Shown: positions 25,192 to 53,713, counted from the first letter of the stretch. The stretch is 55,287 bases of DNA from Dehalococcoidales bacterium (GCA_034430675.1 DAOUEB010000048.1:1-55287); one strand, 5' to 3'. The notes: generated by a model from the letters alone, not told the origin. A program made the numbers and translations.

Positions 25192-25254
25192 GAATTATTT
25201 CTCCCTCCGCGTGTTCCGGCAGGAATGACCGCATAATCGAGCTTTAAAAAACGA

Positions 25255-25612
25255 GCCAAGTAAACCTGTAAGCCGAGTTCTGTGTCCCGATATAATCGGG
25301 ACGGTGACCATCTATCTAGCCCCGATGTTACCATCGGGGTCAAGCGACCAACCCGGGGAATGGGCCGGGCGTCCCTTTGTCCCTCTATTCGGTCTTGCTC
25401 CGGATGGGGTTTGCCCAGCCGGCCGGTCACCCGGCCGCCGGTGAGCTCTTACCTCACCATTTCACCCTTACCCCGATTATTAGTCGGGGCGGTATGTTTC
25501 TGTGGCACTTTCCGTAGGGTCACCCCTCCTGGGTGTTACCCAGCATCCTGCCCGGTGGAGCTCGGACTTTCCTCCCCGAAAAATATCGGGGCGGTCACCC
25601 GGTTTACTTGAC
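25255..25612 (-). ncRNA. rnpB: RNase P RNA, bacterial type A
   Basis: The reverse strand contains GGGGAGGAAAGTCCGAGCTCCAC (P4 5' strand) and ACAGAACTCGGCTTACAGG near the 3' end. caagtaaacc and ggtttacttg pair as P1. The ends are approximate to a few nt. Confidence 0.9.
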
Positions 25613-35481: not shown

Positions 35482-35838
35482 ATGGATTTGGTGACGCGTG
35501 AGATTGGCGATGCTGAACAGGAAGAGAAGGAGGAAACCAGTAAGAATGAGCCGGATTTACCGCCGGAATACTGCCACTACCGGGATGAAGGATGCGAGTA
35601 TGCCGATTCCTGCCTGGACTGTCCGTTCCCGCAGTGCCTTTACGATGAACCGCGCGGGAGGCAGCGCTGGCTGAAGGAATTACGGAACAGGGAGATAAAC
35701 AGGCTTTTTACAGGAGGGTGGGGGGTCAAGGAACTGGCATTATTGTTCGGGGTGAGCCAGAGGACGATACAGAGGGCGTTAAATAACACTTTACCTACCT
35801 CACCTATAAAGCAGAGCGAGGAACCCGATAAACGGTAA
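35482..35838 (+). CDS. Cysteine-cluster plus HTH regulator (phage-like)
   Basis: Five Cys in 22 residues (CHYRDEGCEYADSCLDCPFPQC) followed by GGWGVKELALLFGVSQRTIQRAL, a helix-turn-helix. Confidence 0.5.
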   Translation: MDLVTREIGDAEQEEKEETSKNEPDLPPEYCHYRDEGCEYADSCLDCPFPQCLYDEPRGRQRWLKELRNREINRLFTGGWGVKELALLFGVSQRTIQRALNNTLPTSPIKQSEEPDKR

Positions 35839-35863
35839 GACTATTTATTAAGGAGAAAGAAAC

Positions 35864-37252: not shown

Positions 37253-37261
37253 TCAGGAGGA

Positions 37262-37759
37262 ATGATGGTTACGGAAAAAGAACAGGAAAAGACCGAAGAG
37301 TTAGAGGCGGACGTGGATGAGCTTGATAAGCTCAAGCAGGAGAACGAATCGCTTACCCGTGAGCTTGAGTCCCGCGACGCAACCATTATAAGGCTGGAGC
37401 AGGCGCTGGTGACGAAAGACAGCGAAATAACCGCGTTAAAGCAGTCGCTGGACGATACGGAGCAGTCGCTGGACGAGCTCGGCAAGGCCTTACCGCAGGC
37501 GGTAGCCGCCTATAAGGAAATCGTGGTGCAGGCGAACCCCGGCATCCTGACTGAGCTGATAGCCGGGGATTCCATCGAGGAAGTGAACGAATCGCTGAAG
37601 AACGCCCGGGCGCTCATGGAAAGAGTCAGACAGGAAATGGAAGCGGAAGCGGCGAAAACGAGAGTGCCTGCCGGCGCCCCGCAGAGGGCGCCATTAGACC
37701 TGTCGTCGCTCTCGGCCCGGGAGAAAATTCAATACGCAATAGGAGGTTCTTCGTCCTGA
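37262..37759 (+). CDS. Phage scaffolding protein
   Basis: Acidic coiled-coil protein of 165 aa between the portal and major capsid genes. Confidence 0.6.
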   Translation: MMVTEKEQEKTEELEADVDELDKLKQENESLTRELESRDATIIRLEQALVTKDSEITALKQSLDDTEQSLDELGKALPQAVAAYKEIVVQANPGILTELIAGDSIEEVNESLKNARALMERVRQEMEAEAAKTRVPAGAPQRAPLDLSSLSAREKIQYAIGGSSS

Positions 37760-37787
37760 TGCGTAAGAGCAGGCTACTCCCTCCCGG

Positions 37788-37915
37788 CTGGATTCTGGCC
37801 TGCGCCGGAATGACAGGTGAGTGAGAGAAGGGGGGGCGGATTGCTTCGCGGAGTTTATCCTGAGCGTAGCGTGAGGACTCGCAATGACAGGGGGAAAGCG
37901 TTCCCCGGAATGACA
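37788..37915. repeat. Cluster of family-B (ctggattc..gc..ggaatgaca) and family-A repeat units between the scaffold and capsid genes
   Basis: B unit at 37788-37815. A unit with an insert at 37838-37889. ccggaatgaca again at 37905-37915. Confidence 0.8.
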
Positions 37916-37961
37916 GATACAAACAAAACAGGAATTTTAAAAGAGGGAGGAGAAAAATAAA

Positions 37962-38882
37962 ATGGCAATGACTTTAGAAGAGGCAGCCAAGCTATCCAAC
38001 GATATGCTGCTGCAGGGGGTGGTGGAGACCATCGTCAAAGACTCGCCGGTGCTCCAGAGCCTGCCCTTTATCGAAATCGTGGGTAACGGCCTGACCTATA
38101 ACCAGGAAAAGACCCTGCCCAGCATCGACTTTTACGATGTCGGTGATACCTGGGCGGAATCGACGCCTACCTTCGAGCAAATTACCGCCAACCTGAAAAT
38201 CATGGGCGGTGACGCCGACGTGGACAACTTTCTTAAGTCCACCCGCAGCAATATCCAGGACCTGGAAGCGGCGGTAATCGAGCTGAAGGCCAAGGCACTC
38301 AAGGACAAGTTCGAAGAGATGTTTATCTACGGGGATTCCGACACCAATGCCAAGCAGTTCGACGGCTTGAGGAAACTCATCGATACCGAGTCGGCCAGCG
38401 ACCGGGTAGTGGCAATGGGGGCTACCGGCGCCACGCTGACCCTGGCCAAGCTCGACGAGCTTATCGACGCCGTCAAGGGCGGCAAGCCCGATATGCTGCT
38501 GATGAGTCGCCGTTCCAGGAGAAAAATCAATGTCCTGGTCAGGGCGGCCGGCGGCATGACCGAGACCGAACGGGACAAGTGGGGCAACTTCGTGCAGCTC
38601 TGGGACGGTGTGCCTATCGGCGTTAATGACTGGATACTGGATACCCACACCGTAGTTTCAAGCCTGGAAACAGGCACTACCGGGGGCACCTGCTCCACCA
38701 TCTACGCCGTGCAGTTCGGGGAGGGGGCCCTCTGCGGGCTGACCAGCCCGGGGCACCTGCAGGCCGAGCCGGTAGGGCCGCTGGAGAACAAGGATGCCTC
38801 GCGGACCAGGGTCAAGTGGTATGTATCTCTGGCGCTGTTTTCGTCCGTCAAGGCGGCGACATTAATCGGCGTCAAGGACTAA
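37962..38882 (+). CDS. Phage major capsid protein (HK97-fold type that uses a separate scaffold)
   Basis: 306 aa directly after the scaffold gene. The overall pattern (N-terminal LTLEEAAKLSND, FDGLRKLI, LTLAKLDELIDAV..GKPDMLLMS) is typical of major capsid families. Confidence 0.7.
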   Translation: MAMTLEEAAKLSNDMLLQGVVETIVKDSPVLQSLPFIEIVGNGLTYNQEKTLPSIDFYDVGDTWAESTPTFEQITANLKIMGGDADVDNFLKSTRSNIQDLEAAVIELKAKALKDKFEEMFIYGDSDTNAKQFDGLRKLIDTESASDRVVAMGATGATLTLAKLDELIDAVKGGKPDMLLMSRRSRRKINVLVRAAGGMTETERDKWGNFVQLWDGVPIGVNDWILDTHTVVSSLETGTTGGTCSTIYAVQFGEGALCGLTSPGHLQAEPVGPLENKDASRTRVKWYVSLALFSSVKAATLIGVKD

Positions 38883-38903
38883 AACTTTACATAAAGATAG
38901 ACA

Positions 38904-38925
38904 GGGGGAGGGAACTCCCTCCCCC
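38904..38925 (+). terminator. Perfect 9-bp GC hairpin (gggggaggg-aact-ccctccccc) 22 nt after the capsid stop
   Basis: Exact complementarity. There is no U-tract. It could attenuate read-through into the downstream genes. Confidence 0.35.
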
Positions 38926-38942
38926 TTACGGGAGGAAAAATT

Positions 38943-39407
38943 ATGGTACTGGCAGTAGTAGAACATATCGAGCACCCCTTCGCCAGGGGCAGCCTGACGG
39001 CGGACGGAGTGCAGTGGAGCGCCGAGCATACGACGACCACCGACGATTACGAGGAAGTCGAGAGCGTGACGATTAAGCCCCCGGCGCTGGGCGAAGTGCT
39101 GGAGTACGAGTTCGGGCTTACCTGCGCGGTAAAGTCGAGCGGTGCTACCGAATCCGTCCTTCTCAAGTGGCAGGCGCGCAACCAGGGTGGCACCTGGGTT
39201 GACCTTCATGACGAGGTAACCTATGCGGCTAACGCCTCTACTTACAGAGAATACACCTACAGCGGGCGCTTCAAACCGGTGGCCAACTTCGATGCGGTGC
39301 CTTTTGAAGTCCGGCTGATGGTTAAGTCGGGTGGCGCCGGAGGAGAAACCGCCACCGGCAAGACCAAGAGCTCAAGCTATGTCAAGGTAGTCTATTCGGC
39401 TTCGTGA
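38943..39407 (+). CDS. Hypothetical phage structural protein (beta-rich)
   Basis: GGGAGG RBS. Position within the structural operon. No recognisable motif. Confidence 0.45.
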   Translation: MVLAVVEHIEHPFARGSLTADGVQWSAEHTTTTDDYEEVESVTIKPPALGEVLEYEFGLTCAVKSSGATESVLLKWQARNQGGTWVDLHDEVTYAANASTYREYTYSGRFKPVANFDAVPFEVRLMVKSGGAGGETATGKTKSSSYVKVVYSAS

Positions 39408-40054
39408 GGTGTGTTGTGAAGTTTATATTTGACCCCAGTCTGGTGCTTTATCTGCCATTATATGAACAGGATGGCAGTTCCCTCTTGTCCAGGGACGCCT
39501 ACGGACATGTATGCACTGTAACGGGTGCTTTGTGGCGACCTGGCGGCAGGTACTTTGATGGCGTGGATGACAGGATTTATTGTGGGGATTCGGCAATACT
39601 TGACCTGGTTTCTGCGTTCACGCTGGAAATATGGGTTAAGACGACTGACACAGAAGGAGTGCTCCTAGCAAAGAGAACGACCCAAAGTGATTGGCCATTT
39701 GTATTCTACGTTGGTGCTTCGGTGACTCCTGCTCTCTATGCTGACGATGGTAGTGCAGATAGCGTTAGTTCTACATCAACGCTATCTGATGTTATGACGC
39801 ATGTGGTTGTAACCAGGGATGAAACTACCATTAACTTTTTCTTTAATGGTCAAGCGGATGCGGGCAACCCGCAAACACTGAAGAAGGGAAGCTCGGATGC
39901 CGATGCCAAATTTGCTATTGGGGCACAGTGGGTTGTTAATACTTGGAACAATCCTCTAATAGGGAATATCGGTGAAGCTCGCATTTACAGCCGTGTCCTA
40001 ACCCCACAGGAAATCCAACACAACTATCTGGCAACTAAATGGAGGTATCAATGA
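39404..40054 (+). CDS. LamG / concanavalin-A-like lectin domain protein
   Basis: The pattern FDGVDDRIYCGDS ... FTLEIWVKT ... ARIYSRVLTPQEIQHNY matches Laminin_G_3. Confidence 0.65.
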   Translation: MRCVVKFIFDPSLVLYLPLYEQDGSSLLSRDAYGHVCTVTGALWRPGGRYFDGVDDRIYCGDSAILDLVSAFTLEIWVKTTDTEGVLLAKRTTQSDWPFVFYVGASVTPALYADDGSADSVSSTSTLSDVMTHVVVTRDETTINFFFNGQADAGNPQTLKKGSSDADAKFAIGAQWVVNTWNNPLIGNIGEARIYSRVLTPQEIQHNYLATKWRYQ

Positions 40055-40263
40055 AGTACAGAGTGAGAGTGGACCTGAGCTTTGACAGCGAGGCCGATGC
40101 CCGGTCATTGATGGATTATGCCAGGACTTTAAGCGGCAAGGCGGTCAGCATCAACGAGAGCGAGCCCAATGAGGAGATAGCCTTCTGCGACCTGGAACTC
40201 TGCGGCCACGACGAAGGGCTGCCCTGCACCAAACTGGACAGGGTGGAAGTAAGAAAGCTATAA
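40051..40263 (+). CDS. Small hypothetical protein (70 aa)
   Basis: ATGA overlap with the LamG stop. No family recognised. Confidence 0.4.
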   Translation: MKYRVRVDLSFDSEADARSLMDYARTLSGKAVSINESEPNEEIAFCDLELCGHDEGLPCTKLDRVEVRKL

Positions 40264-40275
40264 GGAGTGGTAACT

Positions 40276-40908
40276 ATGAATCTGACTGATATGAGAGCCA
40301 TAGTCAGGCGTGACCTGCATGACGAGGACGCCGGTAACTATCGCTGGACAGACGATGAGATTAGCCGGCACATCGCTCACGCCGTTAAGGAGTTCTCCGA
40401 GCGGATACCTTATGAGCAGAAGGCGACCAAAGCCACGACATCGGCCTCGAGGGAGCTGGATATATCTACCGTAACCGACAGGGTTGTGGTGGAGGCCGTG
40501 GAGTACCCGGTAGACAGGTTCCCCAAAAGATACCAGCCTTTTTCGCTGTGGGGCGATACGCTGACTGTCCTCGGGGATGAGGTGCCGGACGGCTCCGATG
40601 CTTACATATACTATGGTAAGCTCCATACCCTCGATGCCGGCGGTTCCACCATACCCGCGCCGTATGAAGACCTGATTGCGGTCGGTGCCGGCGGCTTCGC
40701 CGCGATAGAGTGGGCGGTCTATGCGGTCAACCGGGTCAATGTCGGCGGGACGGTAACGCCGAAGGAGTTTCTCGACTGGGGTAACCGGAAGCTGAAGTAT
40801 TTCCGGCAGGAACTGAGGAGGCTGGGACGAAGAAACCGTGTCAGGACCAGCACTCTCTACCGTCCGTACTATCCAATCGTTTCGAAAACAACCGATTACG
40901 GCCCATAA
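40276..40908 (+). CDS. Hypothetical phage protein, possibly a head-tail adaptor
   Basis: AAGGAG lies 10 nt upstream of ATG 40276. The N-terminal pattern LTDMRAIVRRDLHDED....WTDDEISRHIAHAV resembles head-tail connector proteins. This is a weak call. Confidence 0.35.
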   Translation: MNLTDMRAIVRRDLHDEDAGNYRWTDDEISRHIAHAVKEFSERIPYEQKATKATTSASRELDISTVTDRVVVEAVEYPVDRFPKRYQPFSLWGDTLTVLGDEVPDGSDAYIYYGKLHTLDAGGSTIPAPYEDLIAVGAGGFAAIEWAVYAVNRVNVGGTVTPKEFLDWGNRKLKYFRQELRRLGRRNRVRTSTLYRPYYPIVSKTTDYGP

Positions 40909-40933
40909 TCGACCGGGGCACTGGAGTAAAGCG

Positions 40934-42937
40934 ATGCGCGAGTTAACATCAACGCTATTGGCCGCCCCGAAGCAGGAGGCGGCGATTCCTTACGTCAAAA
41001 TTGAGGCCGTCAACAAAATAGCCGGGGTGGTCAGACAGGACTGGTCCAGGCTGTACGATGGCTCCGAGGAGGACTACTTCCATGCCGTGACCATGCCCGG
41101 CGACGGCTCTCTTATCAGGGCCAGGATAACCCTGCCCGCCGATTCCCGGAAGCTGTACCGGCAGAGGGTGGGCAGTCCCGGCCCGGGGAGCGATTTCAGC
41201 CAGTGGACCTACACCGGCCAGTACAATGCCATCGTGGTGGTGGCGGCTTCACTGGGGACAGAGGTCTCCATCTTCTGGATTAAGTCCAACCGGGAAATCA
41301 GACGCATCAAGAGCACGGACTACGGTGTTAGCTGGGGCAGCCCCGAGCTTATCGACTACACGCCGACCACTGCTATCTACGGCCTGGCGGCGGCCTATAA
41401 GCCCGGCGGCGACCTGGCCATCTTCTTCGCCGACCAATCGACCCTCTACGTCAAGAAGAATATCAGCGGCCAGTGGCAGACAAAGGCGGCCTGGGACAGG
41501 GCCACCGGGGATTTATCCGGGGTTGCCTGTGTCTATGACGGCGACTGGAACCTGCTAATTACCGGGAAAGACACGGCGGGGAACTACAAGCTGTGGAGTC
41601 TGGTTTATGGAGATGGCGGCGATGTCGCCGCCGGGACATGGTCGGCGCTGAAAGAGCTTGCCTCGGCGCCGTCGGGTGGGGATTTCGAGTACCGCCAGCC
41701 CTTTCTGGGTAAACCGGATGTCTACCGCTGTTTCTTTGTCGAAAAATTCGCCGGCACCGCAGCCTATAATCGTCCCTTCCGGTCGCATTCCATACCCGGC
41801 ACGGATTTCATCAACGGGCTGTGGCGGGAGCCTGCGCCGTTCAATTTATCCTCGGAATACGGCCTGGCCATGGCGCACCACGGCGATTACGGCTGGCTCT
41901 CTTGTCCCGACGGCGTCTGGAGGGCACCGCTGGCTGCCCAGAGCCTCGACCTGACGGCGGATGTTGTCGGCGTCAGGCAGGAAGCCGGTGAGACTTCAGG
42001 CGGTTTAACGGTGGAACTGAGGAACGACGACGGGAGGTATGCCGCGCCGGGGGAAGGCGACCTGGCCATCCTCGACATCGGCTGCCATCTGGAGTTTAGT
42101 CCCGGCTATGTTACCCTTTCTGGCAGCGAGTACAGCGCTGGCCAGAGCTTTTGTCTGGAGTCCTACGAACATACGAGCTCCGGTGGGAAAGCCAGCCTGA
42201 TTCTGCACGCCAGGGATGGGTGGGGGGCGCTTAACGACTGGAAGGCGCGGCACCAGTTCCGCTGGAACCGGACTTCCGATGATTTTAGCGTTAAAGAAAT
42301 TATAGCTTTGATTTTAGCCAGGGTAGGCCTGAAGCTCGAGGTGATATCGCAGTCGCCGGTGGTAACCGGCTTTTACCCCGATTTTACGGTAAGCCCGGAT
42401 AATAGCGGCCGGGCGGTGATACACAAGCTGCTGTCCTTTGTCCCCGATGTCATCTTCATCGAAGGTAACAAGGCTTATATCGTCAATCCGTTATCGTCGG
42501 ATAGCTCCGTTTACAGCTACGGCGGAGAGCACCGGCTCCGGGAGGGGAGATACCTGCGGGGAGCCCTGCGAATGAACCGGGTGCAGGTGGAGGGGTATGA
42601 TACGGTCGGCGGCAATTTGATTCTGGCCGACAGCTTTGACTGGGACGAGATAGACCGACTCTACGACCGGCTGGTCCAGGTTGAGGATAGGAATACGGGC
42701 ACCGTGGCGGAAGCCCAGCAACGGGGGCAGGCTTATTTAAGACAAGCTGAGATAGAAGCGGGCGGGGGTGCGATTGTCATCCCGGTGAACTGCGGACAGC
42801 AGCTCTACGACGTCGTTGATGTGACCGATGCGCGGGCGGGACTCGATGCGGAGAAGAAAAGGGTGCTGGGCCTCGTCCTGGTCTATAATCCCCAGCGGGG
42901 AGAGTACCGCCAGCGATTAAGCTTGGGGGCGGTGTAG
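40934..42937 (+). CDS. Large phage tail-tip/hub-like protein with a BNR (Asp-box) element and a gpD-like C-terminus
   Basis: I moved the start to ATG 40934, after GGAG. The Asp-box STDYGVSW is at 41312-41335. The C-terminal segment (GQQLYDVVDVTDARAGLD ... RVLGLVLVYNPQRGEYRQRLSLG) resembles late-control gpD/hub proteins. Confidence 0.5.
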   Translation: MRELTSTLLAAPKQEAAIPYVKIEAVNKIAGVVRQDWSRLYDGSEEDYFHAVTMPGDGSLIRARITLPADSRKLYRQRVGSPGPGSDFSQWTYTGQYNAIVVVAASLGTEVSIFWIKSNREIRRIKSTDYGVSWGSPELIDYTPTTAIYGLAAAYKPGGDLAIFFADQSTLYVKKNISGQWQTKAAWDRATGDLSGVACVYDGDWNLLITGKDTAGNYKLWSLVYGDGGDVAAGTWSALKELASAPSGGDFEYRQPFLGKPDVYRCFFVEKFAGTAAYNRPFRSHSIPGTDFINGLWREPAPFNLSSEYGLAMAHHGDYGWLSCPDGVWRAPLAAQSLDLTADVVGVRQEAGETSGGLTVELRNDDGRYAAPGEGDLAILDIGCHLEFSPGYVTLSGSEYSAGQSFCLESYEHTSSGGKASLILHARDGWGALNDWKARHQFRWNRTSDDFSVKEIIALILARVGLKLEVISQSPVVTGFYPDFTVSPDNSGRAVIHKLLSFVPDVIFIEGNKAYIVNPLSSDSSVYSYGGEHRLREGRYLRGALRMNRVQVEGYDTVGGNLILADSFDWDEIDRLYDRLVQVEDRNTGTVAEAQQRGQAYLRQAEIEAGGGAIVIPVNCGQQLYDVVDVTDARAGLDAEKKRVLGLVLVYNPQRGEYRQRLSLGAV

Positions 42938-42982
42938 GTAAGGTACGAAGGAGGCATTGGAGATGAGTATGTTACCCCTTTT

Positions 42983-43056
42983 TGTCATAGTCGGGCTTGA
43001 CCCGACTATCCAGACCTCCTTACCCCCTCTGGATTCCCGCCTTTGCGGGAATGACA
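42983..43056. repeat. Composite inverted repeat (tgtcatagtcgggcttgacccgactatccag ... ctggattcccgcctttgcgggaatgaca)
   Basis: Left arm at 42983-43013. Right arm, a family-B unit, at 43029-43056. The termini tgtcat and atgaca are complementary, and each arm holds its own small hairpin. Confidence 0.7.
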
Positions 43057-43095
43057 GTTTGGGTGTCTGATTTGTATTTTCGGAGGAATTCTATT

Positions 43096-43308
43096 ATGAA
43101 GTTGAGGAAAGGTGAGCTAAGGAGTTTCAACTCCGGTAACTATACGGCCACGGTTCGACTCGCCAGCAGCTATAAGGTCTATCTGGAAGATGTGGCTGTG
43201 GCCAGGAATATATCATCGGCGGAAATGATTACCGGACGCAGGGTGGCCGTGATATTCTTCGATGAGCACAGTCCCAGGGATGCGGTGGTCGTGGCTGTTT
43301 ATACCTAA
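43096..43308 (+). CDS. Small gpV/gp5 OB-fold-like spike protein (70 aa)
   Basis: GGAGGA RBS. TATVRLASSYKVYLEDVAVARN....ITGRRVAVIFFDEHSPRDAVVVAVY resembles the N-terminal OB domain of baseplate protein V. The longer track ORF only translates the upstream repeat. Confidence 0.4.
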   Translation: MKLRKGELRSFNSGNYTATVRLASSYKVYLEDVAVARNISSAEMITGRRVAVIFFDEHSPRDAVVVAVYT

Positions 43309-44231
43309 TGGGGCTTGCTGAGGATTTCATTGGGAGTGAGGGGGCGTTTCCGCGCGCAACCCGGTATTCCCTTTTGCAGGGCTCCGTGGAAAGGTTTTAC
43401 CGGTTCTTCAACCTCGGGTTCGGGTTCTGTTACCGGCGCCTCTATCTCTATAGCGGTTGCTCCCAGCCCGGCTCCCGGCTTGCCCATGTTCTCCACGAGT
43501 GTCATCAGGACGCGGTTCTGCTCGGCGGCGCCCTTCTTTAATTCTTGAGAGGCCTCGGAGAGGCCCTGGATAGCGCTGGTATGGCTGGACAGGTGCTGGG
43601 CATATTCCGCAATGGCGCCGGCAAACTTCTCCAGTGCCTGTTCCGTGGTGTTCATCTTTTGTTCCGTGGCTTCTATCTTGCTCGTCAGCGCCCGGCTGGA
43701 GCGTTTTTCCTCGTTAATGACAGGGGCAAAGATTCCCCGGTGTACCAGGTTGCCGCCGCGGGTTATCTCGCCGCCGTAGAGGAAGAAGGCAAGCAGGGCG
43801 AGGGCAATAATAGCGAATATCAGACCCTGCTGACTCTGGAAGAACAGCAGCGGGAGTCCGAGGAACGGTATCTGACTGCCAACCGTGCCCCTGATGTCCT
43901 GGGGGCTTATGGTAAAGGGGTCTTCGCCGGTATTATCGCCCTTGGTACGGAAACCGAGGATCGGAGTGGTATTAATTTTTATGACCCTGTGGGCGACCGT
44001 CGGGGGGTAGCTATAGTAGTCCCGGACCATGGGCGGGACATTGTATACGATGATATCGCCCACCTTGACATCCCGGGGTTCTACGGGCTCAATCATGAGC
44101 AGGCCGCCGGACTGAAGCGCCGGTTCCATACTGGAGCCGAAGATAGGCATAAACGGCAGTGTTCCTCTTACGGAGAGGAAAGCTATTATACAGGCTATTA
44201 CTGCGAATGTTAGTCCTATGGCGCGTTTCAT
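43305..44231 (-). CDS. ER/archaeal-type signal peptidase I (SipW-like, S26B) with a long C-terminal coiled-coil extension
   Basis: GSSMEP (Ser nucleophile), VAHRV (His general base, not Lys), TKGDNTGEDP, and a second TM helix followed by a ~160-aa helical tail. Confidence 0.75.
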   Translation of the reverse strand: MKRAIGLTFAVIACIIAFLSVRGTLPFMPIFGSSMEPALQSGGLLMIEPVEPRDVKVGDIIVYNVPPMVRDYYSYPPTVAHRVIKINTTPILGFRTKGDNTGEDPFTISPQDIRGTVGSQIPFLGLPLLFFQSQQGLIFAIIALALLAFFLYGGEITRGGNLVHRGIFAPVINEEKRSSRALTSKIEATEQKMNTTEQALEKFAGAIAEYAQHLSSHTSAIQGLSEASQELKKGAAEQNRVLMTLVENMGKPGAGLGATAIEIEAPVTEPEPEVEEPVKPFHGALQKGIPGCARKRPLTPNEILSKPH

Positions 44232-44247
44232 GATACTATCCTATGCC

Positions 44248-45297
44248 TTACCTCTGTCCGACCTCACAATAGAATTCGGGTATAATGTTCCAGCCAGCCC
44301 CCCATTCATCGGAGTCGCCGGAAATCAGGCGGTAGCTGCCGCCGGTTATTTCTATGATATAGGTTTCGGCGGAGCCGCCTTCAATGTTAAATAAAACTAC
44401 GCCGGTCTCGATGCTGAGGACCTGGTAATCGGGCGTTTTTTCCGCTTCAAGTGTATTGGCCATGTAGACCTTCATGTTGAGGTACTGGTACGCCTTGAGG
44501 AGTTCGGCGGTGTTGGTCAGGTAAAGCTTTACCAGCAGGTCGCCGGTATAATCCTCGTGCGGGGTGATGTCATACAGGTGACCGTGGGGTACTTCACCCT
44601 CGGTAATAGAGAACTCGTAGCTGACCGCGACATAGACCTGGGTGCAGAGGGCGGGTTTCGTTTTTTTATTGCCCTTCATGGTGACCCCGGCCTGTAATTC
44701 ATTTATTTCTTCCGATGTCCACGGTTCACCGGTGTCAGGGTTGGTGGTGCACTGCCATGACTCGGTCACAAAATCAGTGCCGGAATAAGTTAATGTAGGG
44801 CCTTCATAGACCTGGCCATTGGTCTTGAGGGCGGCCATGGCTTTGACATTGTAGCCTCCGCCAGCGGCGTAACGGAAATAAACGGTAATACCGGTTATCG
44901 TTTCCTCGCCGCCGACTCCTGTATAGTTACTGAGGTTGTACAGGTCTCTCTCCCAGTGTTTGGATGTTAAGGTGGATACGTAGGTATCACCGTCATCGGC
45001 GGTGGGCTGGTCATCCACTTTGTCCCAGTGTTCATCGGAAGCGGGGTACTGGGTGGGCAGCTCGGTATCATCGCCAGCGGCAACCGGTACAAGGGTTTCG
45101 GTATTAAACTCACCCTCGGGCAGGATGTTATTCCATAGAGGCTGATTGTCTGATGGCTGGTAGGTGGTCCAGACGCCGTCAGCCAGAGTAACATCCAGTG
45201 TTGTTGTGCCGATATTGGTATAGGTGTAAGCGAAGGTACCGGTGGTCAACACCAGGGCGAGTAATACCATTCCTATAAAAACCAGTTTCTTTTTCAT
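44248..45297 (-). CDS. Secreted protein with a SipW-cognate-like signal peptide; paralogous C-terminal domain
   Basis: MKKKLVFIGMVLLALVLTTGTFAYTY signal. The C-terminal ~110 aa align with the neighbouring 251-aa protein and end in EFYCEVGQR. Confidence 0.6.
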   Translation of the reverse strand: MKKKLVFIGMVLLALVLTTGTFAYTYTNIGTTTLDVTLADGVWTTYQPSDNQPLWNNILPEGEFNTETLVPVAAGDDTELPTQYPASDEHWDKVDDQPTADDGDTYVSTLTSKHWERDLYNLSNYTGVGGEETITGITVYFRYAAGGGYNVKAMAALKTNGQVYEGPTLTYSGTDFVTESWQCTTNPDTGEPWTSEEINELQAGVTMKGNKKTKPALCTQVYVAVSYEFSITEGEVPHGHLYDITPHEDYTGDLLVKLYLTNTAELLKAYQYLNMKVYMANTLEAEKTPDYQVLSIETGVVLFNIEGGSAETYIIEITGGSYRLISGDSDEWGAGWNIIPEFYCEVGQR

Positions 45298-45348
45298 TTG
45301 TCCTTTTACCGTTTGCCTTTGTCGAGAGTAAGGTTTTTTCTTTAGTGG

Positions 45349-45383
45349 GGTAGGGTGGCGGTGCTGAGTCCTGCCACCCTACC
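45349..45383 (-). terminator. 11-bp-stem hairpin between the two secreted-protein genes
   Basis: ggtagggtggc (45349-45359) and gccaccctacc (45373-45383). There is no U-tract on the coding (minus) strand. Confidence 0.3.
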
Positions 45384-45398
45384 ACCTATATCAGAGTA

Positions 45399-46154
45399 TT
45401 AGAGTCCTTTCTGGGCTACTTCACAGAACAGCTGCGGAGAGCCGGTGCCAACCACGGCACCAGAGCCCTTGGCATGGGTGATGTAGAAACCGCTCTTAAT
45501 ACGGACGGTCATGTTGGCTGTAACAGGCGGGAACATATCTACCGAGCCGTTCTTCAGGTTGAGCAGGACCCATTTGGCGCCGTTCCCGCCGCTGATGTCA
45601 AGAGGAACACTAGGAGCAGCTGAATTCACCACTTCCAGCTGCATAGAGAGCACGCGGTACTCATCCGACAGTTCGGCGGCATTACCGATACCGACGCTTA
45701 CAATCAGGTCGCCGGCATAGGTGCCAGCGTCGACGTAGAACAGGCTGGTGTTTGCGGTCATTTCTCCTTTCACGTTACCGTGAGCAGTCCAGCCGGTTAA
45801 GGTTGCGTTTACCGCAGTGACATCGGCGAAGTTTTCGGCGGTCGTGGTGGCGCTCATCGTAGTGGTGGCGTTAATCCAGCCGAAGGCGAAGACGCCGCCG
45901 GTGACGGCCAGTGCCAGGAGCAGAGCTCCAACCAGGTAGGGTACCTTGGTTCTGGAGACGGCGAAAGTGAGTTTATCGTCGTCGTTGAGCACCGTATCAA
46001 GTTCGGCGCTCGATTTGACCTTGCTGCCATTCAACTTTGTTTTGGCTTTATCCGGGATGCCAAATTCTGACTTGAATGCCTCGCGAGCCTCGCTTACTGT
46101 CTGGCCAGCCAGGTCGGTTACTTCGTATTGGTCACCATATCTAATTTCGACCAT
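45399..46154 (-). CDS. Protein with an N-terminal ubiquitin-like (beta-grasp) domain, a signal-anchor and a secreted paralogous domain
   Basis: Residues 1-70 fit a ThiS/MoaD/YukD-like pattern (VEIRYGDQYEV ... KLNGSKV ... LNDDDKLTFAV). Then comes the TM helix LVGALLLALAVTGGVFAFGW. The protein ends in QLFCEVAQKGL. Confidence 0.55.
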   Translation of the reverse strand: MVEIRYGDQYEVTDLAGQTVSEAREAFKSEFGIPDKAKTKLNGSKVKSSAELDTVLNDDDKLTFAVSRTKVPYLVGALLLALAVTGGVFAFGWINATTTMSATTTAENFADVTAVNATLTGWTAHGNVKGEMTANTSLFYVDAGTYAGDLIVSVGIGNAAELSDEYRVLSMQLEVVNSAAPSVPLDISGGNGAKWVLLNLKNGSVDMFPPVTANMTVRIKSGFYITHAKGSGAVVGTGSPQLFCEVAQKGL

Positions 46155-46320: not shown

Positions 46321-47109
46321 TCAGGTCAGTTCACCTATAAAGGATTTTAAGCGTTCCATTAAAGAGTCTTTGAACTCGTTGAATTCTGCTTTGGTAACGT
46401 ATTCGGCGGCTTTGCCGCCCTTTTTAACCGGGCCGCCGATTATAGATGGCAGGCTTCTCTGGGTGACTTCAATCACGGCCCGGGCCTGTTCATTGCTTAT
46501 CAGCTTGTTCAGCACCAGTCTCAGGTTGCGCCTGATGGTCTCCTCGTTTACATCCAGTTTGGCAGCGACCTGCTCGATGGTATTGCCGGCGGCGATGTTG
46601 GTCAGGACCTGTGTCTCTTTGGGAGTGAGGTTGGCGAGAAGATTATCAATCTGCTCGTTTAAAGCGGCCATGTCTTCAAATTCGGCAAGCACCATCGAGG
46701 CAAGCTCCGGGAGCAGCAGGTCTTCCATAATAGGTTGGCTGCCCTGGGCGACTACCCTGATGATATCGAGAAGATATTCGGGGTCGGTATCTTTGGTAAG
46801 GCAGGCGCTGGCCCCGCTCTTGATGGCGGCGAAGAGATTGTCCTCATCTTTTTTATCCAGTGTCAGAATCACCGATACCGAGGGGAAATTGCGTTTGATG
46901 CGGCGGGTTATCTCGGCGCCGCTGGTCTTGGCATCCTGCATGCTCAGGACAGCGATGTTGGGTGGATTGGATTCAATAAGGGTAAAGGCTTCCTGGTTGC
47001 TGGTGGTCTCACCGATAACCTCAAAATCGTCCTCGCCCGAGAGAATGAAGTGTATGCCTTCTCGGAAGAGAACCTGCGGGTCTGAGAGAAATACTTTTAC
47101 TTTTTCCAT
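46321..47109 (-). CDS. LuxR/NarL-type response regulator with an atypical receiver and a C-terminal extension
   Basis: Receiver-like N-terminus, LuxR HTH (LTPKETQVLTNIAAGNTIEQVAAKLDVNEETIRRNL), then ~55 extra residues. The expected phospho-acceptor position reads AVLSMQD. An alternative start exists at 47133. Confidence 0.65.
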   Translation of the reverse strand: MEKVKVFLSDPQVLFREGIHFILSGEDDFEVIGETTSNQEAFTLIESNPPNIAVLSMQDAKTSGAEITRRIKRNFPSVSVILTLDKKDEDNLFAAIKSGASACLTKDTDPEYLLDIIRVVAQGSQPIMEDLLLPELASMVLAEFEDMAALNEQIDNLLANLTPKETQVLTNIAAGNTIEQVAAKLDVNEETIRRNLRLVLNKLISNEQARAVIEVTQRSLPSIIGGPVKKGGKAAEYVTKAEFNEFKDSLMERLKSFIGELT

Positions 47110-47302
47110 CTTCACAATTCCCTCTATTACCATAAGTACTTGATTACCTAGTTCAAATGTAACATAGATTCATAAAGAAGCGTCTAAGAAATATAAAGAT
47201 TTTATAAAGATGTTGTAAGCTTTTAGTAAAGAATGGAAGGTGGTTTTATGACTGGGGCTGTGGGGCTAATGGCAAGGGGCAACGGAGGGGTTGGGCGGAC
47301 AC

Positions 47303-48001
47303 TTAGTTGCGGGAGGGACGGATAAACTTGTAGCCGATGCCATGCTCGGTGACGATGATGATGGGCGATTCGGCACTGTCTTCCAGTTTCTGCCGGAGGT
47401 GCTGGATGTGGACGCGGAGCAGGTCCCTGGCGTCAACGTAGGTATCTCCCCAGACCTTGGTGAGCAGGCTCTCATGGGAGAGGATGCGTCCCTCGTTCCT
47501 GATCAAGTAGTAGAGCAGTTTTCTTTCGGTGGAGGTGAGCTTTATCGGCTGGCCACTTATCATGACTTCATTGCGGTTAAAATCGACAGATAGCTTGCCG
47601 CTGATGAAGGGGCGTTCCTCATCGGTTACGGCCAGTCCCTGAGCGCGGCGCAGGACTGCCTGCACCCGGGCTATCAGCTCGATGTGGCTGAAGGGCTTGG
47701 TGATATAGTCGTCGGCGCCGAGCTCAAGACCTTTAGCAACGTCGGTATCCTCGCCCCTGACCGTCAGCATGAGTACCGGCACGTCGGCGAAACGGCGTAT
47801 CTCTCTGAGTACCTGGTAGCCGTCTATATCGGGCAGGCCGATATCCAGGATAACAACGTCAGGACTCTCTGCTTCCACGAGCTCTATACCCTTATGACCG
47901 TTGGCGGCGGATATCACCGTGGTACCGCTCCAGCGCAACTGGAAACAGAGGGAGACTACTTCTATAATCCCCGGGTCATCTTCTATAACCAGAACTTTCA
48001 T
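47303..48001 (-). CDS. OmpR/PhoB-type response regulator
   Basis: MKVLVIEDDP, VILDIGLPDIDG, and a winged-helix C-terminus (TVRGEDTD ... LSVDFNRNEV ... LTSTERKLLYYL). I moved the start to ATG 48001, after AAGGAG. Confidence 0.9.
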   Translation of the reverse strand: MKVLVIEDDPGIIEVVSLCFQLRWSGTTVISAANGHKGIELVEAESPDVVILDIGLPDIDGYQVLREIRRFADVPVLMLTVRGEDTDVAKGLELGADDYITKPFSHIELIARVQAVLRRAQGLAVTDEERPFISGKLSVDFNRNEVMISGQPIKLTSTERKLLYYLIRNEGRILSHESLLTKVWGDTYVDARDLLRVHIQHLRQKLEDSAESPIIIVTEHGIGYKFIRPSRN

Positions 48002-48017
48002 TTTGCTCCTTAAACCA

Positions 48018-48731
48018 TTACGTAGGCTGTTTTGTAGCTTGCCGCGGTATAAAGAAGGAGAAAGTGCTGCCTTCACCCGGTTCGCTGTCTACCCAGATTC
48101 TGCCTCCGTGGAGCTCGACTACCTGCTTGGCCAGGGCAAGCCCCAAGCCCAGTCCCGGGTGGCGTCGTGTGTCAGAGCTGAGGCGGCTGTATGGCTTGAA
48201 TATACTTTCTTGCTCTTCCTTGGCGATGCCGATGCCGTCATCATGTACACCTATCACCAGGCCGGTATCCTGCTTCCGTACTCGTACCGTGATGTTGCCC
48301 CCTTCCGGGGTGAACTTGGTGGCGTTGTTCATCAGGTTGAGTAATACCTGCTCCAACCTCTGCCCGTCTCCGTGTATGATGGGGATGGATTCAGGTAAGT
48401 CGGTATTCAGGGTTTGCTGCTTGCCACGGAGCAGCGGGCTGATTTGCATGCATGTGCCGAGAACGAGCGACTTCATGTCCACCGGCTCAAGCTGTAGCCC
48501 TAGCTTGCCGCTGCCCGTCTTGACGATATCCAGCAGTTCGGCCAGTCTTGTCTCCAGGGTATTGGCGTTCTGGATGATGGTTTGAATCAGCTTCTGGTAA
48601 GACTCATCGGCGGTGGTTTCAAGTTCCTCGGCCAGCAGGCCGGCCGCAGCGATAATCGTGGTCAGGGGTGTTTTAAGTTCATGGCTGAGGGTATCGATAA
48701 ACCTCAGCCATTCCTCTCCTTTGGTTTCCAT
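48018..48731 (-). CDS. Histidine kinase core only (DHp plus CA; no sensor or TM region)
   Basis: H-box SHELKTPLTTI at residues ~16-26, N box LLNLMNNATKF, G boxes DDGIGI and GLGLGLALA. Only ~15 residues precede the H-box. Confidence 0.8.
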   Translation of the reverse strand: METKGEEWLRFIDTLSHELKTPLTTIIAAAGLLAEELETTADESYQKLIQTIIQNANTLETRLAELLDIVKTGSGKLGLQLEPVDMKSLVLGTCMQISPLLRGKQQTLNTDLPESIPIIHGDGQRLEQVLLNLMNNATKFTPEGGNITVRVRKQDTGLVIGVHDDGIGIAKEEQESIFKPYSRLSSDTRRHPGLGLGLALAKQVVELHGGRIWVDSEPGEGSTFSFFIPRQATKQPT

Positions 48732-48882: not shown

Positions 48883-49269
48883 CTATTTTACCATTCCCTT
48901 GGCGATGCTTTTTAAGAGGCTCAGGATGCCGATGACGGCACGCTGCACCTCAGGTGGCTCTTCCGCCAGCATCCTGGCGACATAGGGGTCTAACTGCCGG
49001 CTGTTGTAGCGTGTGTCGCTTTCTTCGGCTACACCGTGCGTCTGAGGGGAGAGGAAGCCGGCCAGGATAAACAGTTCATCCTCATCAAAGCCCAGGGGTT
49101 TGGCGATTTTGCGCAAAATCCGTGCCGATGGAAAGCGCTCACCCCTCTCGATGCGCCCCAGGTGCGATGAAGACACGCTCGATTCCGATGCGAGTTCCTG
49201 CAGAGTTAACGGGACCGTTATTCTCTGCTGTTTGAGTATTCTGCCCAAATCATTATTTGCGTAATCCAT
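48883..49269 (-). CDS. XRE-family helix-turn-helix regulator
   Basis: LGRILKQQRITVPLTLQELASESSVSSSHLGRIERGERFPSARILRKIAKPLG. I moved the start to ATG 49269. Confidence 0.8.
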   Translation of the reverse strand: MDYANNDLGRILKQQRITVPLTLQELASESSVSSSHLGRIERGERFPSARILRKIAKPLGFDEDELFILAGFLSPQTHGVAEESDTRYNSRQLDPYVARMLAEEPPEVQRAVIGILSLLKSIAKGMVK

Positions 49270-49281
49270 ACTCTTATTATA

Positions 49282-49299
49282 ATTTGCCAATTGGCAAAT
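49282..49299. promoter_or_regulatory. Perfect 18-bp palindrome ATTTGCCAATTGGCAAAT 13 nt upstream of the XRE start
   Basis: Exact dyad symmetry. It lies in the divergent intergenic region between the XRE and FAD-oxidoreductase genes. Confidence 0.55.
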
Positions 49300-53640: not shown

Positions 53641-53713
53641 TACCCCCAAGCGGATTCGAACCGCTGCTGCCGGCGTGAAAGGCCGGTGTCCTAGGCCTCT
53701 AGACGATGGGGGC
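53641..53713 (-). tRNA. tRNA-Glu (anticodon UUC)
   Basis: The reverse complement GCCCCCATCGTCTAGAGGCCTAGGACACCGGCCTTTCACGCCGGCAGCAGCGGTTCGAATCCGCTTGGGGGTA folds as a cloverleaf. The anticodon stem is CCGGC/GCCGG with loop CTTTCAC. The T-loop is GGTTCGAATCC. No CCA is encoded. Confidence 0.9.

What the first reader, a model, noticed from the sequence alone, without database searches (positions are those of the whole stretch)
43305..46154. SipW-type signal peptidase operon with two paralogous secreted proteins: candidate TasA-like / bundling-pilus-like fibre system
The 308-aa peptidase has the ER/archaeal-type Ser-His signature (GSSMEP, AHRV, KGDNTGEDP), not the bacterial Ser-Lys type. Directly upstream on the same strand are two proteins whose hydrophobic leaders end in similar motifs, LTTGTFAYTY and VTGGVFAFGW. 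Their C-terminal ~110 residues are paralogous: YAGDLIVSVGIGNAAELSDEYRVLSMQLEV ... QLFCEVAQ versus YTGDLLVKLYLTNTAELLKAYQYLNMKVYM ... EFYCEVGQ. From established knowledge, dedicated SipW peptidases process TasA/TapA biofilm fibres in Bacillus. I recall related donor-strand-exchange fibres being described in archaea. The peptidase here also carries a ~160-aa coiled-coil tail after a second TM helix. The substrates do not obviously resemble TasA/camelysin at the sequence level, so this could be a distinct fibre or surface-layer family.
Basis: partly seen in the sequence, partly recalled or inferred. Interest (0 to 1): 0.75.

Follow-up and report, generated by a model that had tools for sequence, protein, structure and literature searches.

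The report
Cannula-like secreted fibre operon in Dehalococcoidales
A wall-less bacterial group (Dehalococcoidales) carries a conserved gene module, made of regulators, two secreted jelly-roll proteins and their own archaeal-type signal peptidase, that most likely builds an extracellular fibre related to the cannulae and bundling pili of archaea and to the TasA biofilm fibres of Bacillus.

Summary
Three same-strand genes encode protA (45399-46154), protB (44248-45297) and an archaeal/ER-type Ser-His signal peptidase I (43305-44231). TIGR02228 scores above its cut-off. The C-terminal ~115 residues of protA and protB are homologous (hhalign E 3.5e-18).

The AlphaFold2 model of protA matches, in order, Pyrodictium cannulae CanA, the Hyper2 tube and the Pyrobaculum bundling pilin AbpA. 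All are donor-strand fibres of the TasA superfamily.

Both leaders end in T-G-G-x-F-A. A conserved strand-like segment follows, alternating Thr/Ser with hydrophobic residues. It is unstructured in the monomer models, as expected for a donor strand.

The peptidase is present in 27 of 27 informative genomes. The same pairing recurs in a distant Paenibacillus relative.

- protA carries a strongly conserved cytoplasmic ubiquitin-like domain ahead of its signal sequence.
- The cytoplasmic tail of the peptidase is as conserved as its catalytic domain.
- A covarying hairpin follows protA.
- protB carries an inserted module shared with phage proteins.
- The adjacent phage-like capsid cluster is vertically conserved.

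No Pfam or NCBIfam model covers the substrates. Polymerisation itself is untested. Verdict: a new variant of a known kind.

The parts
48883..49290 (-). XRE-type HTH regulator, first gene of the seven-gene module
   Evidence: Syntenic in nearly all loci. Pfam HTH_3/HTH_31 on the orthologues. Absent together with the rest of the module in L109.
48018..48731 (-). Soluble histidine kinase (HisKA + HATPase_c) with no sensor or TM domain
   Evidence: Pfam domains on the orthologues. No hydrophobic segment. Syntenic.
47303..48076 (-). OmpR-type response regulator
   Evidence: Response_reg + Trans_reg_C on the orthologues. 83-94% identical across loci.
46321..47133 (-). NarL/LuxR-type response regulator with a conserved ~45-residue C-terminal helical extension, directly upstream of protA
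   Evidence: Response_reg 6.4e-13 and GerE 1.4e-7. Syntenic. The same tail is kept in an HTH-less paralogue next to an orphan protA copy in L025.
45957..46154 (-). protA residues 1-66: cytoplasmic ubiquitin-like (ThiS/MoaD-type beta-grasp) domain, without a C-terminal Gly-Gly
   Evidence: AF2 pLDDT ~90. Foldseek hits to ThiS 3cwi and 1zud and to MoaD 3rpf/6jbz, probability 1.0, TM 0.58-0.68. Pfam ThiS E 0.0028, below cut-off. It is the most conserved part of protA (0.82 mean identity to the window residue, against 0.49 for the jelly roll).
45885..45956 (-). protA residues 67-90: signal-anchor ending in T-G-G-V-F-A. The predicted signal-peptidase cut lies between Ala90 and Phe91.
   Evidence: Hydropathy TM 70-96. 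T85, G86, G87, F89 and A90 are invariant or nearly so. Variants at the same locus that lack the beta-grasp domain carry this segment as an ordinary N-terminal signal peptide.
45819..45884 (-). protA residues 91-112: conserved N-terminal extension of the mature protein (FGWINATTTMSAT...NFADV), the candidate donor strand
   Evidence: No secondary structure and the lowest pLDDT in the monomer model. Across 107 divergent relatives, Thr/Ser at positions 5, 7, 9, 11 and 13 alternates strictly with hydrophobic residues at 6, 8, 10, 12 and 14, followed by D-F-A-x-V.
45402..45818 (-). protA residues 113-251: CanA-like jelly-roll domain ending in LFCEVAQ
   Evidence: Foldseek against the PDB: CanA 9h8b E 2.9e-6, 7uii, 9hdi, 9dlo, Hyper2 9bab, AbpA 7ueg. 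In one of two profile searches CanA is also the top PDB sequence hit (A2: E 0.49); in the other it is second (A3: E 1). Neither is significant.
45349..45383 (-). Intercistronic GC-rich hairpin immediately 3' of the protA stop codon (GGTAGGGTGGC / GCCACCCTACC), with no U tract
   Evidence: Sequence. Folds in all loci. 11-bp stem, 91% of cells paired, 9 of 11 pairs with compensatory double changes, 0 of 500 shuffles reach this, and slid controls give 32-55%. No Rfam family.
45229..45297 (-). protB residues 1-23: Sec signal peptide ending in T-T-G-T-F-A. The predicted cut lies between Ala23 and Tyr24.
   Evidence: Hydropathy 3-25. A14, L15, L17, T18, G20, T21, F22 and A23 are invariant or nearly so.
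44608..45120 (-). protB residues ~60-230: inserted beta-sandwich module shared with phage proteins, the candidate adhesin or lectin module
   Evidence: phrog_6368 E 9e-8 over residues 68-206. Foldseek against BFVD: A0A6J7XSE0, TM 0.82, rmsd 2.4, 23% identity. 33-45% identical, with E down to 1.6e-29, to a signal-less protein encoded between the capsid and adaptor genes in other variants of the neighbouring cluster. Absent from 202-208-residue second subunits in L006 and L128/L129.
44251..44607 (-). protB residues 231-349: C-terminal half of the jelly roll, homologous to protA residues 127-249, ending in FYCEVGQR
   Evidence: hhalign probability 99%, E 3.5e-18. The protA profile hits it at 4.6e-15 in the window.
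43755..44231 (-). Signal peptidase I, archaeal/ER (S26B, Ser-His) type: TM1, extracytoplasmic catalytic domain, TM2
   Evidence: TIGR02228 72.9 bits against a cut-off of 51.85. S34-M-E-P and H81-R are conserved. TM 1-31 and 128-158.
43308..43754 (-). Peptidase residues 160-308: cytoplasmic tail. Residues 160-245 are a conserved helical region, followed by a variable Pro/Glu-rich linker and a short basic end.
   Evidence: Per-column conservation over 28 orthologues equals that of the catalytic domain. Only weak similarity to MCP-signalling and coiled-coil families. Kept in all 120 listed homologues, which are 281-425 residues long.

Best explanation
This is a seven-gene module: an XRE regulator, a sensor-less histidine kinase, two response regulators, protA, protB and a peptidase. 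It most likely makes an extracellular fibre by donor-strand complementation.

Shown:
- protA and protB share a jelly-roll domain whose predicted fold is closest to CanA and AbpA.
- Both carry hydrophobic leaders ending in T-G-G-x-F-A.
- The third gene is an archaeal-type Ser-His signal peptidase I, always encoded with them.

Inferred:
- Both proteins are inserted through Sec with the N-terminus in the cytoplasm.
- The dedicated peptidase cuts after the conserved Ala. This exposes the new N-termini FGWINATTT... (protA) and YTYTN... (protB).
- That amphipathic Thr-rich strand inserts into the open groove of the next subunit's jelly roll. Subunits are chained in this way without a chaperone, as in CanA, AbpA and TasA.
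- protA is the major subunit. Its gene comes first and is followed by a conserved hairpin that should attenuate read-through or stabilise the protA transcript.
- protB is a minor subunit, either a tip adhesin or an initiator, as TapA and AbpB are proposed to be. It displays an acidic, phage-type binding module.
- The ubiquitin-like domain of protA and the helical tail of the peptidase both face the cytoplasm. They probably regulate or couple processing, perhaps to the sensor-less kinase. This last step is the weakest.
For: Fold:
- Foldseek hits of the protA model are CanA, Hyper2 and AbpA.
- protB hits CanA at probability 1.0.

Peptidase:
- TIGR02228 scores above its cut-off, and Ser34 and His81 are conserved.

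Linkage:
- 27 of 27 informative GTDB loci carry the peptidase.
- The same order is kept in divergent relatives.
- A Paenibacillus relative lies next to a TIGR02228-type peptidase.

Cleavage site:
- T/G-G-x-F-A is invariant or nearly so and obeys the -3/-1 rule.
- By my own knowledge it resembles the TasA/CalY 'GGGT(F/W)A' site.
- Variants of protA without the beta-grasp domain use the same segment as an ordinary signal peptide.

Donor strand:
- The N-terminal extension is conserved with strict alternation across 107 divergent relatives.
- It is unstructured in the monomer models.

Stoichiometry:
- A covarying hairpin follows protA.

Unit:
- The whole seven-gene block is missing as one piece in L109.
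Against: - No oligomer was modelled or observed, so donor-strand exchange is an analogy.
- The similarity to CanA is structural only. Sequence E-values are 0.49 and 1, and TM-scores are moderate (0.46-0.61 on the target).
- No PF12389 or TIGR04088 match.
- The N-terminal motif (aromatic residues at positions 1 and 3, no acidic residue at 4) differs from the one described for AbpX/TasA.
- A folded cytoplasmic domain ahead of a cleaved signal sequence is unusual. protA might stay uncleaved as a membrane anchor.
- Whether this peptidase is dedicated, or is the cell's only type I signal peptidase, was not tested.
- The role of the hairpin is inferred. It has no U tract.
Confidence: 0.6

Rival explanations
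1. The same proteins polymerise by strand exchange, but into a two-dimensional lattice, sheath or wide tube (an S-layer-like coat or true cannulae) rather than a thin fibre. This would serve as the envelope or intercellular matrix of these peptidoglycan-less cells.
For: The best structural matches are tube formers: CanA cannulae and the Hyper2 tube. AbpX, of the same superfamily, forms para-crystalline lattices. protA carries about 6 N-x-S/T sequons per ~160 mature residues, as surface-layer glycoproteins often do. By my own knowledge, cultured Dehalococcoidia lack peptidoglycan and have an S-layer-like envelope.
Against: An essential envelope protein would not be expected to be absent from its locus, yet the whole module is missing there in L109. 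The GTDB scan returned only uncultured MAGs and no named Dehalococcoides or Dehalogenimonas genome. Control by a two-component system suggests conditional expression.
Confidence: 0.12
2. protA and protB do not polymerise. They are monomeric surface or membrane-tethered binding proteins (lectin- or CBM-like jelly rolls) that simply need a specialised signal peptidase. protA may stay anchored by its uncleaved TM helix, with the ubiquitin-like domain signalling to the cytoplasm.
For: The PDB matches of protB are dominated by carbohydrate-binding and MAM jelly rolls. protA has a type II membrane-protein layout with a highly conserved cytoplasmic domain. No oligomer evidence exists.
Against: The top six PDB matches of protA are all polymer subunits. 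The conserved, alternating N-terminal extension that is unstructured in the monomer has no obvious role in a monomer. Variants without the beta-grasp domain have ordinary cleavable signal peptides at the same position. The pairing of subunit paralogues with an archaeal-type/SipW-like peptidase matches known fibre loci.
Confidence: 0.18
3. The module is an accessory of the neighbouring domesticated phage-like particle. It could be a receptor, a tether or a release device for the particle, and not primarily a biofilm or adhesion fibre.
For: The module converges on a capsid, portal, adaptor and 699-residue-protein cluster in nearly all genomes. The inserted module of protB is 33-45% identical to a protein encoded inside that cluster in other variants, and it matches phage proteins.
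Against: Each occurs without the other. L030 has the fibre module and no cluster. L010, L016, L024 and L028 have eroded clusters with an intact fibre module. L109 has the cluster with the module precisely absent. Second subunits without the phage-type module exist. The Paenibacillus relative shows no phage-like genes among the called neighbours.
Confidence: 0.07

Closest known systems
CanA/CanX cannulae of Pyrodictium abyssi, with the Hyper2 tube (PDB 9h8b, 7uii, 9dlo, 9hdi, 9bab)
   Same: This is the best structural match of the protA jelly roll. Both have a Sec/SPI-type leader, an N-terminal donor strand and chaperone-free assembly. The motif xDLxVxVxLxNAxxLxxxYxxLxLQL aligns with CanA DVKLKVTLANAEQLKPYFKYLQIQI.
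   Different: Sequence similarity is not significant (E 0.49-1). CanX homologues are reported only in Pyrodictiaceae, and CanX-like proteins mostly in Thermoproteota, and their loci lack a dedicated peptidase. The present system is bacterial, has its own peptidase, has a second subunit with an inserted module, and has a ubiquitin-like domain on the precursor. Calcium dependence is unknown.
AbpA/AbpB archaeal bundling pili of Pyrobaculum calidifontis (PDB 7ueg)
   Same: Jelly-roll subunit with an N-terminal donor strand. It is encoded next to a larger secreted protein proposed to initiate the filament and act as an adhesin. Foldseek E 2.3e-3.
   Different: No dedicated peptidase lies near abpA. 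The structural match is weaker than to CanA. No sequence similarity was detected.
tapA-sipW-tasA operon of Bacillus subtilis, and CalY/camelysin (Pfam PF12389, TIGR04088 signal)
   Same: The logic is the same: a major jelly-roll fibre subunit, a minor accessory subunit and a dedicated ER/archaeal-type signal peptidase in one operon. By my own knowledge, the TasA/CalY cleavage region reads G-G-G-T-F/W-A, against T-G-G-V-F-A and T-T-G-T-F-A here.
   Different: No PF12389, TIGR04088 or SipW-equivalog match (40 bits against a cut-off of 190). TasA is not among the top 50 structural hits. The gene order differs (subunit, subunit, peptidase). The peptidase carries a 148-residue conserved cytoplasmic tail.
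AbpX-like biomatrix proteins (reported in Thermoproteota, Bacillota and Chloroflexota)
   Same: TasA-superfamily subunits with a neighbouring TIGR02228 peptidase. Bacterial loci are linked to histidine kinases and other regulators. The proteins are acidic, and mature protB has 15% Asp+Glu.
   Different: [quoted passage not shown] Here the peptidase has two TM helices plus a tail, and the aromatic residues are at positions 1 and 3. Whether the published Chloroflexota members overlap this family could not be checked.

Membership tests
TasA superfamily of donor-strand fibre subunits (TasA, AbpA, AbpX, CanA, Saci_0406 thread) | Jelly-roll beta-sandwich fold similar to solved members | tested here: met
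   The six best PDB matches of the protA model are CanA (four entries), Hyper2 and AbpA (E 2.9e-6 to 2.3e-3, probability 0.95-1.0). protB hits CanA 9dlo at probability 1.0. This rests on AF2 models (pLDDT 85.6 and 86.2).
TasA superfamily of donor-strand fibre subunits (TasA, AbpA, AbpX, CanA, Saci_0406 thread) | Secretion by Sec with a type I signal peptidase cleavage site | tested here: met
   Hydrophobic leaders with conserved small residues at -3 and -1 (T/V-F-A). Cleavage itself has not been shown.
TasA superfamily of donor-strand fibre subunits (TasA, AbpA, AbpX, CanA, Saci_0406 thread) | N-terminal donor strand that completes the neighbour's fold | tested here: inconclusive
   A conserved amphipathic alternating segment follows the predicted cut and is unstructured in the monomer models. 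No oligomer model was possible.
TasA superfamily of donor-strand fibre subunits (TasA, AbpA, AbpX, CanA, Saci_0406 thread) | Assembly into filaments, tubes or lattices | not testable with these tools
   This needs multimer prediction, in vitro assembly or microscopy.
TasA/camelysin family proper (Pfam PF12389) with the SipW-cognate signal (TIGR04088) | Match to the family HMMs | tested here: not met
   No Pfam or NCBIfam hit for protA, protB or five relatives, at E up to 0.1-1.
CanA/CanX cannula proteins | Detectable sequence homology to CanA | tested here: inconclusive
   CanA is the top PDB hit of one protA profile and the second hit of the other, at E 0.49 and 1.
Signal peptidase I, archaeal/ER type (MEROPS S26B; TIGR02228) | HMM score above the curated cut-off | tested here: met
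   72.9 bits against 51.85.
Signal peptidase I, archaeal/ER type (MEROPS S26B; TIGR02228) | Ser-His catalytic residues instead of Ser-Lys | tested here: met
   S34 in S-M-E-P and H81 in A-H-R-V are each kept in at least 90% of 28 orthologues. Catalysis has not been assayed.
SipW of Bacillus (NF046067 equivalog) | Equivalog-level HMM score | tested here: not met
   40 bits against a cut-off of 190. It works like SipW but is not an orthologue.
ThiS/MoaD sulfur-carrier beta-grasp proteins (N-terminal domain of protA) | Beta-grasp fold | tested here: met
   Foldseek hits to ThiS and MoaD, probability 1.0, TM 0.58-0.68. Pfam ThiS E 0.0028, below cut-off.
ThiS/MoaD sulfur-carrier beta-grasp proteins (N-terminal domain of protA) | Free C-terminal Gly-Gly for adenylation or thiocarboxylation | tested here: not met
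   The domain runs on into ...LTFAVSRTKVPYLVG and the TM helix, with no Gly-Gly. It is a ubiquitin-like interaction domain, not a sulfur carrier.

The most novel reading that the evidence does not exclude
The fibre module and the adjacent, vertically inherited phage-like capsid cluster work together as one DNA- or cargo-exchange apparatus of wall-less Dehalococcoidales. Cannula-like fibres or tubes would carry the same phage-type binding module as the particle. They would capture, guide or release gene-transfer-agent-like particles. Processing would be reported to a sensor-less kinase through the ubiquitin-like domain of the precursor and the cytoplasmic tail of the peptidase.
Probability: 0.08. 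Interest if true: 0.9.

Novelty: new variant of a known kind. Interest (0 to 1): 0.6.

Why it matters
Donor-strand fibres of the TasA superfamily are emerging as a matrix-building principle shared by bacteria and archaea. The cannula-like branch has so far been reported essentially only from hyperthermophilic Thermoproteota. This locus points to a sequence family with no Pfam or NCBIfam model and that fold, in mesophilic, uncultured Dehalococcoidales, with distant members in Bacillota.

The family comes with its own peptidase and regulators. It therefore offers an experimentally tractable set: two small secreted proteins and one protease. It also adds to the known archaeal-type surface machinery in Chloroflexota.

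Three features have no described counterpart in the fibre systems compared here:
- a folded ubiquitin-like domain in front of a signal sequence;
- a conserved cytoplasmic tail on a signal peptidase;
- a binding module shared between a fibre subunit and a domesticated phage-like particle.

Each suggests a concrete experiment on how fibre secretion is controlled.

Tried and rejected
- Family models for the substrates: Pfam, NCBIfam and PHROGs gave nothing for protA. For protB they gave only phrog_6368.
- Sequence searches of the PDB with both family profiles and with the Paenibacillus relative: nothing significant.
- tblastn of protB against 50,697 phage genomes: no match.
- The 699-residue neighbour against the PDB: nothing.
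- The full CanA sequence, wanted for a profile comparison, is not in the text of PMC12326000.
- The supplement of the AbpX preprint holds no Chloroflexota accessions.
- Rfam has no family for the hairpin.
- The promoter/terminator scan found no more sites than in shuffled sequence and missed the hairpin, which lacks a U tract.
- Rejected: the ubiquitin-like domain and the peptidase tail depend on each other. Loci L130 and L131 combine a protA without that domain (194-195 residues) with tail-bearing peptidases of 331 and 308 residues.
- Rejected: the fibre module needs the phage-like cluster, or the reverse. L030 and L109 show each without the other.
- Rejected: the neighbouring cluster is an ordinary recent prophage (see the items noticed in passing).
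- Rejected: the C-terminal CEVxQR is a sortase-like sorting signal. It is the last strand of the modelled jelly roll, no TM segment follows it, and the Cys is replaced in some relatives.

Full report
**1. What is in the sequence**

On the minus strand, the ORF listing gives three consecutive genes:
- protA, 45399-46154, 251 aa.
- protB, 44248-45297, 349 aa.
- A 308-aa peptidase, 43305-44231.

The gaps between them are 101 nt and 16 nt.

The peptidase passes the curated threshold of TIGR02228, the archaeal-type signal peptidase I model (72.9 bits against 51.85). It scores far below the thresholds of the bacterial LepB model and of the Bacillus SipW equivalog. In 28 orthologues, Ser34 (S-M-E-P) and His81 (A-H-R-V) are each kept in at least 90%.

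protA and protB have no Pfam or NCBIfam match. Their C-terminal ~115 residues are clearly homologous: BLASTP E 8e-9 and hhalign probability 99%, E 3.5e-18. The window holds no third copy.

**2. Conservation and linkage**

- protB has 245 relatives and protA has 366 in the 5.8-billion-protein set. The names attached are Dehalococcoidales or Chloroflexi MAGs.
- A scan of one genome per GTDB species found 37 loci, all in uncultured Dehalococcoidales or 'Dehalococcoidaceae'.
- A tblastn map shows one gene order almost everywhere: FAD oxidoreductase (opposite strand), XRE regulator, histidine kinase, OmpR-type regulator, LuxR-type regulator, protA, protB, peptidase.
- All 27 primary loci with enough downstream sequence carry the peptidase. 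Only L036 lacks protB.
- Four orphan protA copies lie elsewhere in the same genomes.
- In IMG/VR contig L109 the seven genes from the XRE regulator to the peptidase are missing as one block, between unchanged flanks. This defines the module.

A profile of the mature protA domain, run against 1.84 billion cluster representatives, found 211 relatives. They come in three layouts:
- signal peptide plus jelly roll, about 175-200 aa;
- ubiquitin-like domain, TM segment and jelly roll, about 250 aa;
- protB-like, about 345 aa.

Distant members are in Bacillota (Paenibacillus darwinianus, Terrihalobacillus insolitus). The Paenibacillus gene lies next to a 222-aa TIGR02228-type peptidase. The pairing of this family with an archaeal-type peptidase therefore crosses phyla.

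**3. Fold**

*protA.* The AlphaFold2 model built on 120 sequences (pLDDT 85.6) has these top PDB matches:
- ex vivo cannulae, 9h8b, E 2.9e-6;
- self-assembled CanA, 7uii;
- truncated CanA 9hdi and monomeric CanA 9dlo;
- the Hyper2 tube, 9bab;
- the bundling pilin AbpA, 7ueg, E 2.3e-3.

ThiS, MoaD and ubiquitin-like chains follow these, interleaved with low-probability hits. They match residues 1-66.

*protB.* The model (pLDDT 86.2) hits generic CBM and MAM jelly rolls, and hits CanA at probability 1.0 but E 8e-3.

At the sequence level, CanA is the top PDB hit of one protA profile (A2) and the second hit of the other (A3). The E-values are 0.49 and 1. The assignment to the TasA superfamily is therefore structural, not sequence-based.

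**4. Cleavage site and candidate donor strand**

- Both leaders end in T-(T/G)-G-(T/V)-F-A. These residues are invariant or nearly so.
- Small residues sit at positions -3 and -1. By my own knowledge the site resembles G-G-G-T-F/W-A of TasA and CalY.
- In loci L130 and L131, protA lacks the N-terminal domain and the same segment is an ordinary signal peptide (MKVKTNKTAFMLGALLLALAITGGVFA-YGY). This argues that the segment is also cleaved in the long form.
- Across 107 divergent relatives, the residues after the predicted cut show aromatic residues at positions 1 and 3. Thr/Ser at 5, 7, 9, 11 and 13 then alternates strictly with hydrophobic residues at 6, 8, 10, 12 and 14. D-F-A-x-V follows.
- In the monomer models this conserved segment has no secondary structure and the lowest confidence.

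This is the expected signature of a donor strand, but it is not proof.

**5. Operon anatomy**

Directly after the protA stop codon lies a GC-rich hairpin (45349-45383).
- It folds in every locus.
- Its 11-bp stem is paired in 91% of cells.
- Nine of 11 pairs show compensatory double changes.
- No shuffle out of 500 reaches this, and slid controls give 32-55%.
- It has no U tract and no Rfam family.

I read it as an attenuator or a 3' stabiliser that raises protA above protB and the peptidase. By my own knowledge this is known for major-subunit genes of fimbrial operons. protA is then the major subunit.

The kinase of the module has no sensor or TM domain.

**6. protB**

Residues ~60-230 form an inserted module.
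- It matches phrog_6368 (E 9e-8).
- It matches uncharacterised phage proteins in BFVD (TM 0.82, 23% identity).
- It is 33-45% identical (E down to 1.6e-29) to a signal-less 276-aa protein encoded between the capsid and adaptor genes in other variants of the neighbouring cluster.
- Second subunits of only 202-208 aa, which lack the module, occur in L006 and in L128/L129. The module is therefore an optional display domain.

Mature protB is strongly acidic: net charge -33 and 15% Asp+Glu. This fits a minor, tip-located or initiating adhesin subunit, the role proposed for TapA and AbpB.

**7. Cytoplasmic parts**

- The ubiquitin-like domain is the best-conserved part of protA: 0.82 mean identity to the window residue, against 0.49 for the jelly roll. 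It lacks the Gly-Gly end of sulfur carriers.
- Residues 160-245 of the peptidase tail are as conserved as its catalytic domain. The tail is present in all 120 listed homologues.
- Hydropathy and flanking charges place both parts in the cytoplasm.
- They are not mutually dependent.
- Their function is unknown. A link to the sensor-less kinase is my speculation. It is prompted only by a sub-threshold MCP-signalling match (E 0.0065).

**8. Comparison with the literature**

- Dedicated SipW-type peptidases with TasA/TapA are established, and TasA assembles by donor-strand exchange.
- CanX homologues are reported as exclusive to Pyrodictiaceae. CanX-like proteins are reported mostly in Thermoproteota, and without a dedicated peptidase.
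- PF12389 TasA homologues and AbpX-like proteins have been noted in Chloroflexota. The present family does not match PF12389. Its peptidase has two TM helices plus a tail, not ten. Its N-terminal motif differs from that of AbpX.
- No paper in the library links Dehalococcoidia with TasA-like fibres.

I therefore file it as a new variant of a known kind.

**9. Limits**

- Both structure-prediction slots went to monomers, and no multimer tool was available.
- Polymerisation, cleavage and location are inferred.
- Whether the genomes also encode a LepB-type peptidase was not tested.
- The organism is known only from MAGs.

Noticed in passing
window 27550-28944 and 35482-43308 (+ strand); same cluster in L001-L043 and L047-L126: A phage-like structural cluster converges on the fibre operon: large terminase, HTH protein, SPP1-type portal, scaffold-like protein, major capsid protein, small variable genes, SU10-type adaptor, a 699-aa protein and a ~70-aa protein. 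It sits in the same chromosomal place in nearly all Dehalococcoidales genomes. The capsid protein is 81-91% and the portal 70-90% identical where protA is only 42-77% identical. The nearest cultured phage capsid is at most 42% identical. Housekeeping genes flank it (PolA, Fpg, DAHP synthase, RNase P RNA), and no integrase, lysis or replication gene was identified among those annotated. The terminase is separated from the rest by non-phage genes. In IMG/VR it appears only on contigs of 12.7 kb or less among the 80 retrieved. This looks like a domesticated, gene-transfer-agent-like particle, and I found no paper describing one in this group.
   Followed up: partly
L117 1640-2470; also L080, L056, L096, L097, L089, L112: In some variants of the phage-like cluster, the slot between the capsid and adaptor genes encodes a signal-less protein. 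Its first ~165 residues are 33-45% identical to the inserted module of protB (E down to 1.6e-29). A Gly/Ser/Thr-rich tail follows. The fibre subunit and the particle therefore share a module.
   Followed up: partly
window 45349-45383 (- strand): A conserved, covarying 11-bp GC-rich hairpin lies right after the protA stop codon. It has no U tract and no Rfam family. Some orphan protA copies (L026, L040) carry a classical terminator with a U tract instead.
   Followed up: yes
window 45402-45884 (- strand), mature protA: Mature protA is rich in N-x-S/T sequons. The mean is 6.35 per protein across 120 orthologues, including the conserved I-N-A-T directly after the predicted cut. protB has 2.4. This may indicate N-glycosylation, which would be unusual for a bacterium.
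   Followed up: no
L025 9312-10777; also L026, L032, L040: Several genomes hold a second, orphan protA-like gene away from the module. In L025 it is preceded by a paralogue of the LuxR-type regulator. That paralogue has lost its HTH domain but keeps the receiver domain and the conserved C-terminal helical tail (...EFNEF(K/R)D.LM..LKSFIGELT).
   Followed up: partly
window 48018-48731 (- strand): The histidine kinase of the module consists only of HisKA and HATPase_c domains, with no sensor or membrane domain. Its input must come from another protein.
   Followed up: no
P0264 (2369 aa) and P0351 (3357 aa): Two giant proteins contain 12-13 tandem matches to the central part of the protA domain profile (positions ~46-118). 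Part of the fold therefore also occurs as a repeat unit in very large proteins of unknown origin.
   Followed up: no
window 29236-29838 (+), 31379-33100 (-) and 33185-35050 (-): A SocA/Panacea antitoxin-like gene and two large minus-strand genes lie between the terminase gene and the rest of the phage-like cluster. One of the two large genes has TIG/Big_6/Rha78A-type Ig domains. The two large genes are syntenic in several other genomes.
   Followed up: no
window 25253-25610 (-) and 53641-53713 (-): Bacterial class A RNase P RNA (323.6 bits) and one tRNA. These confirm that the window is ordinary bacterial chromosome.
   Followed up: yes
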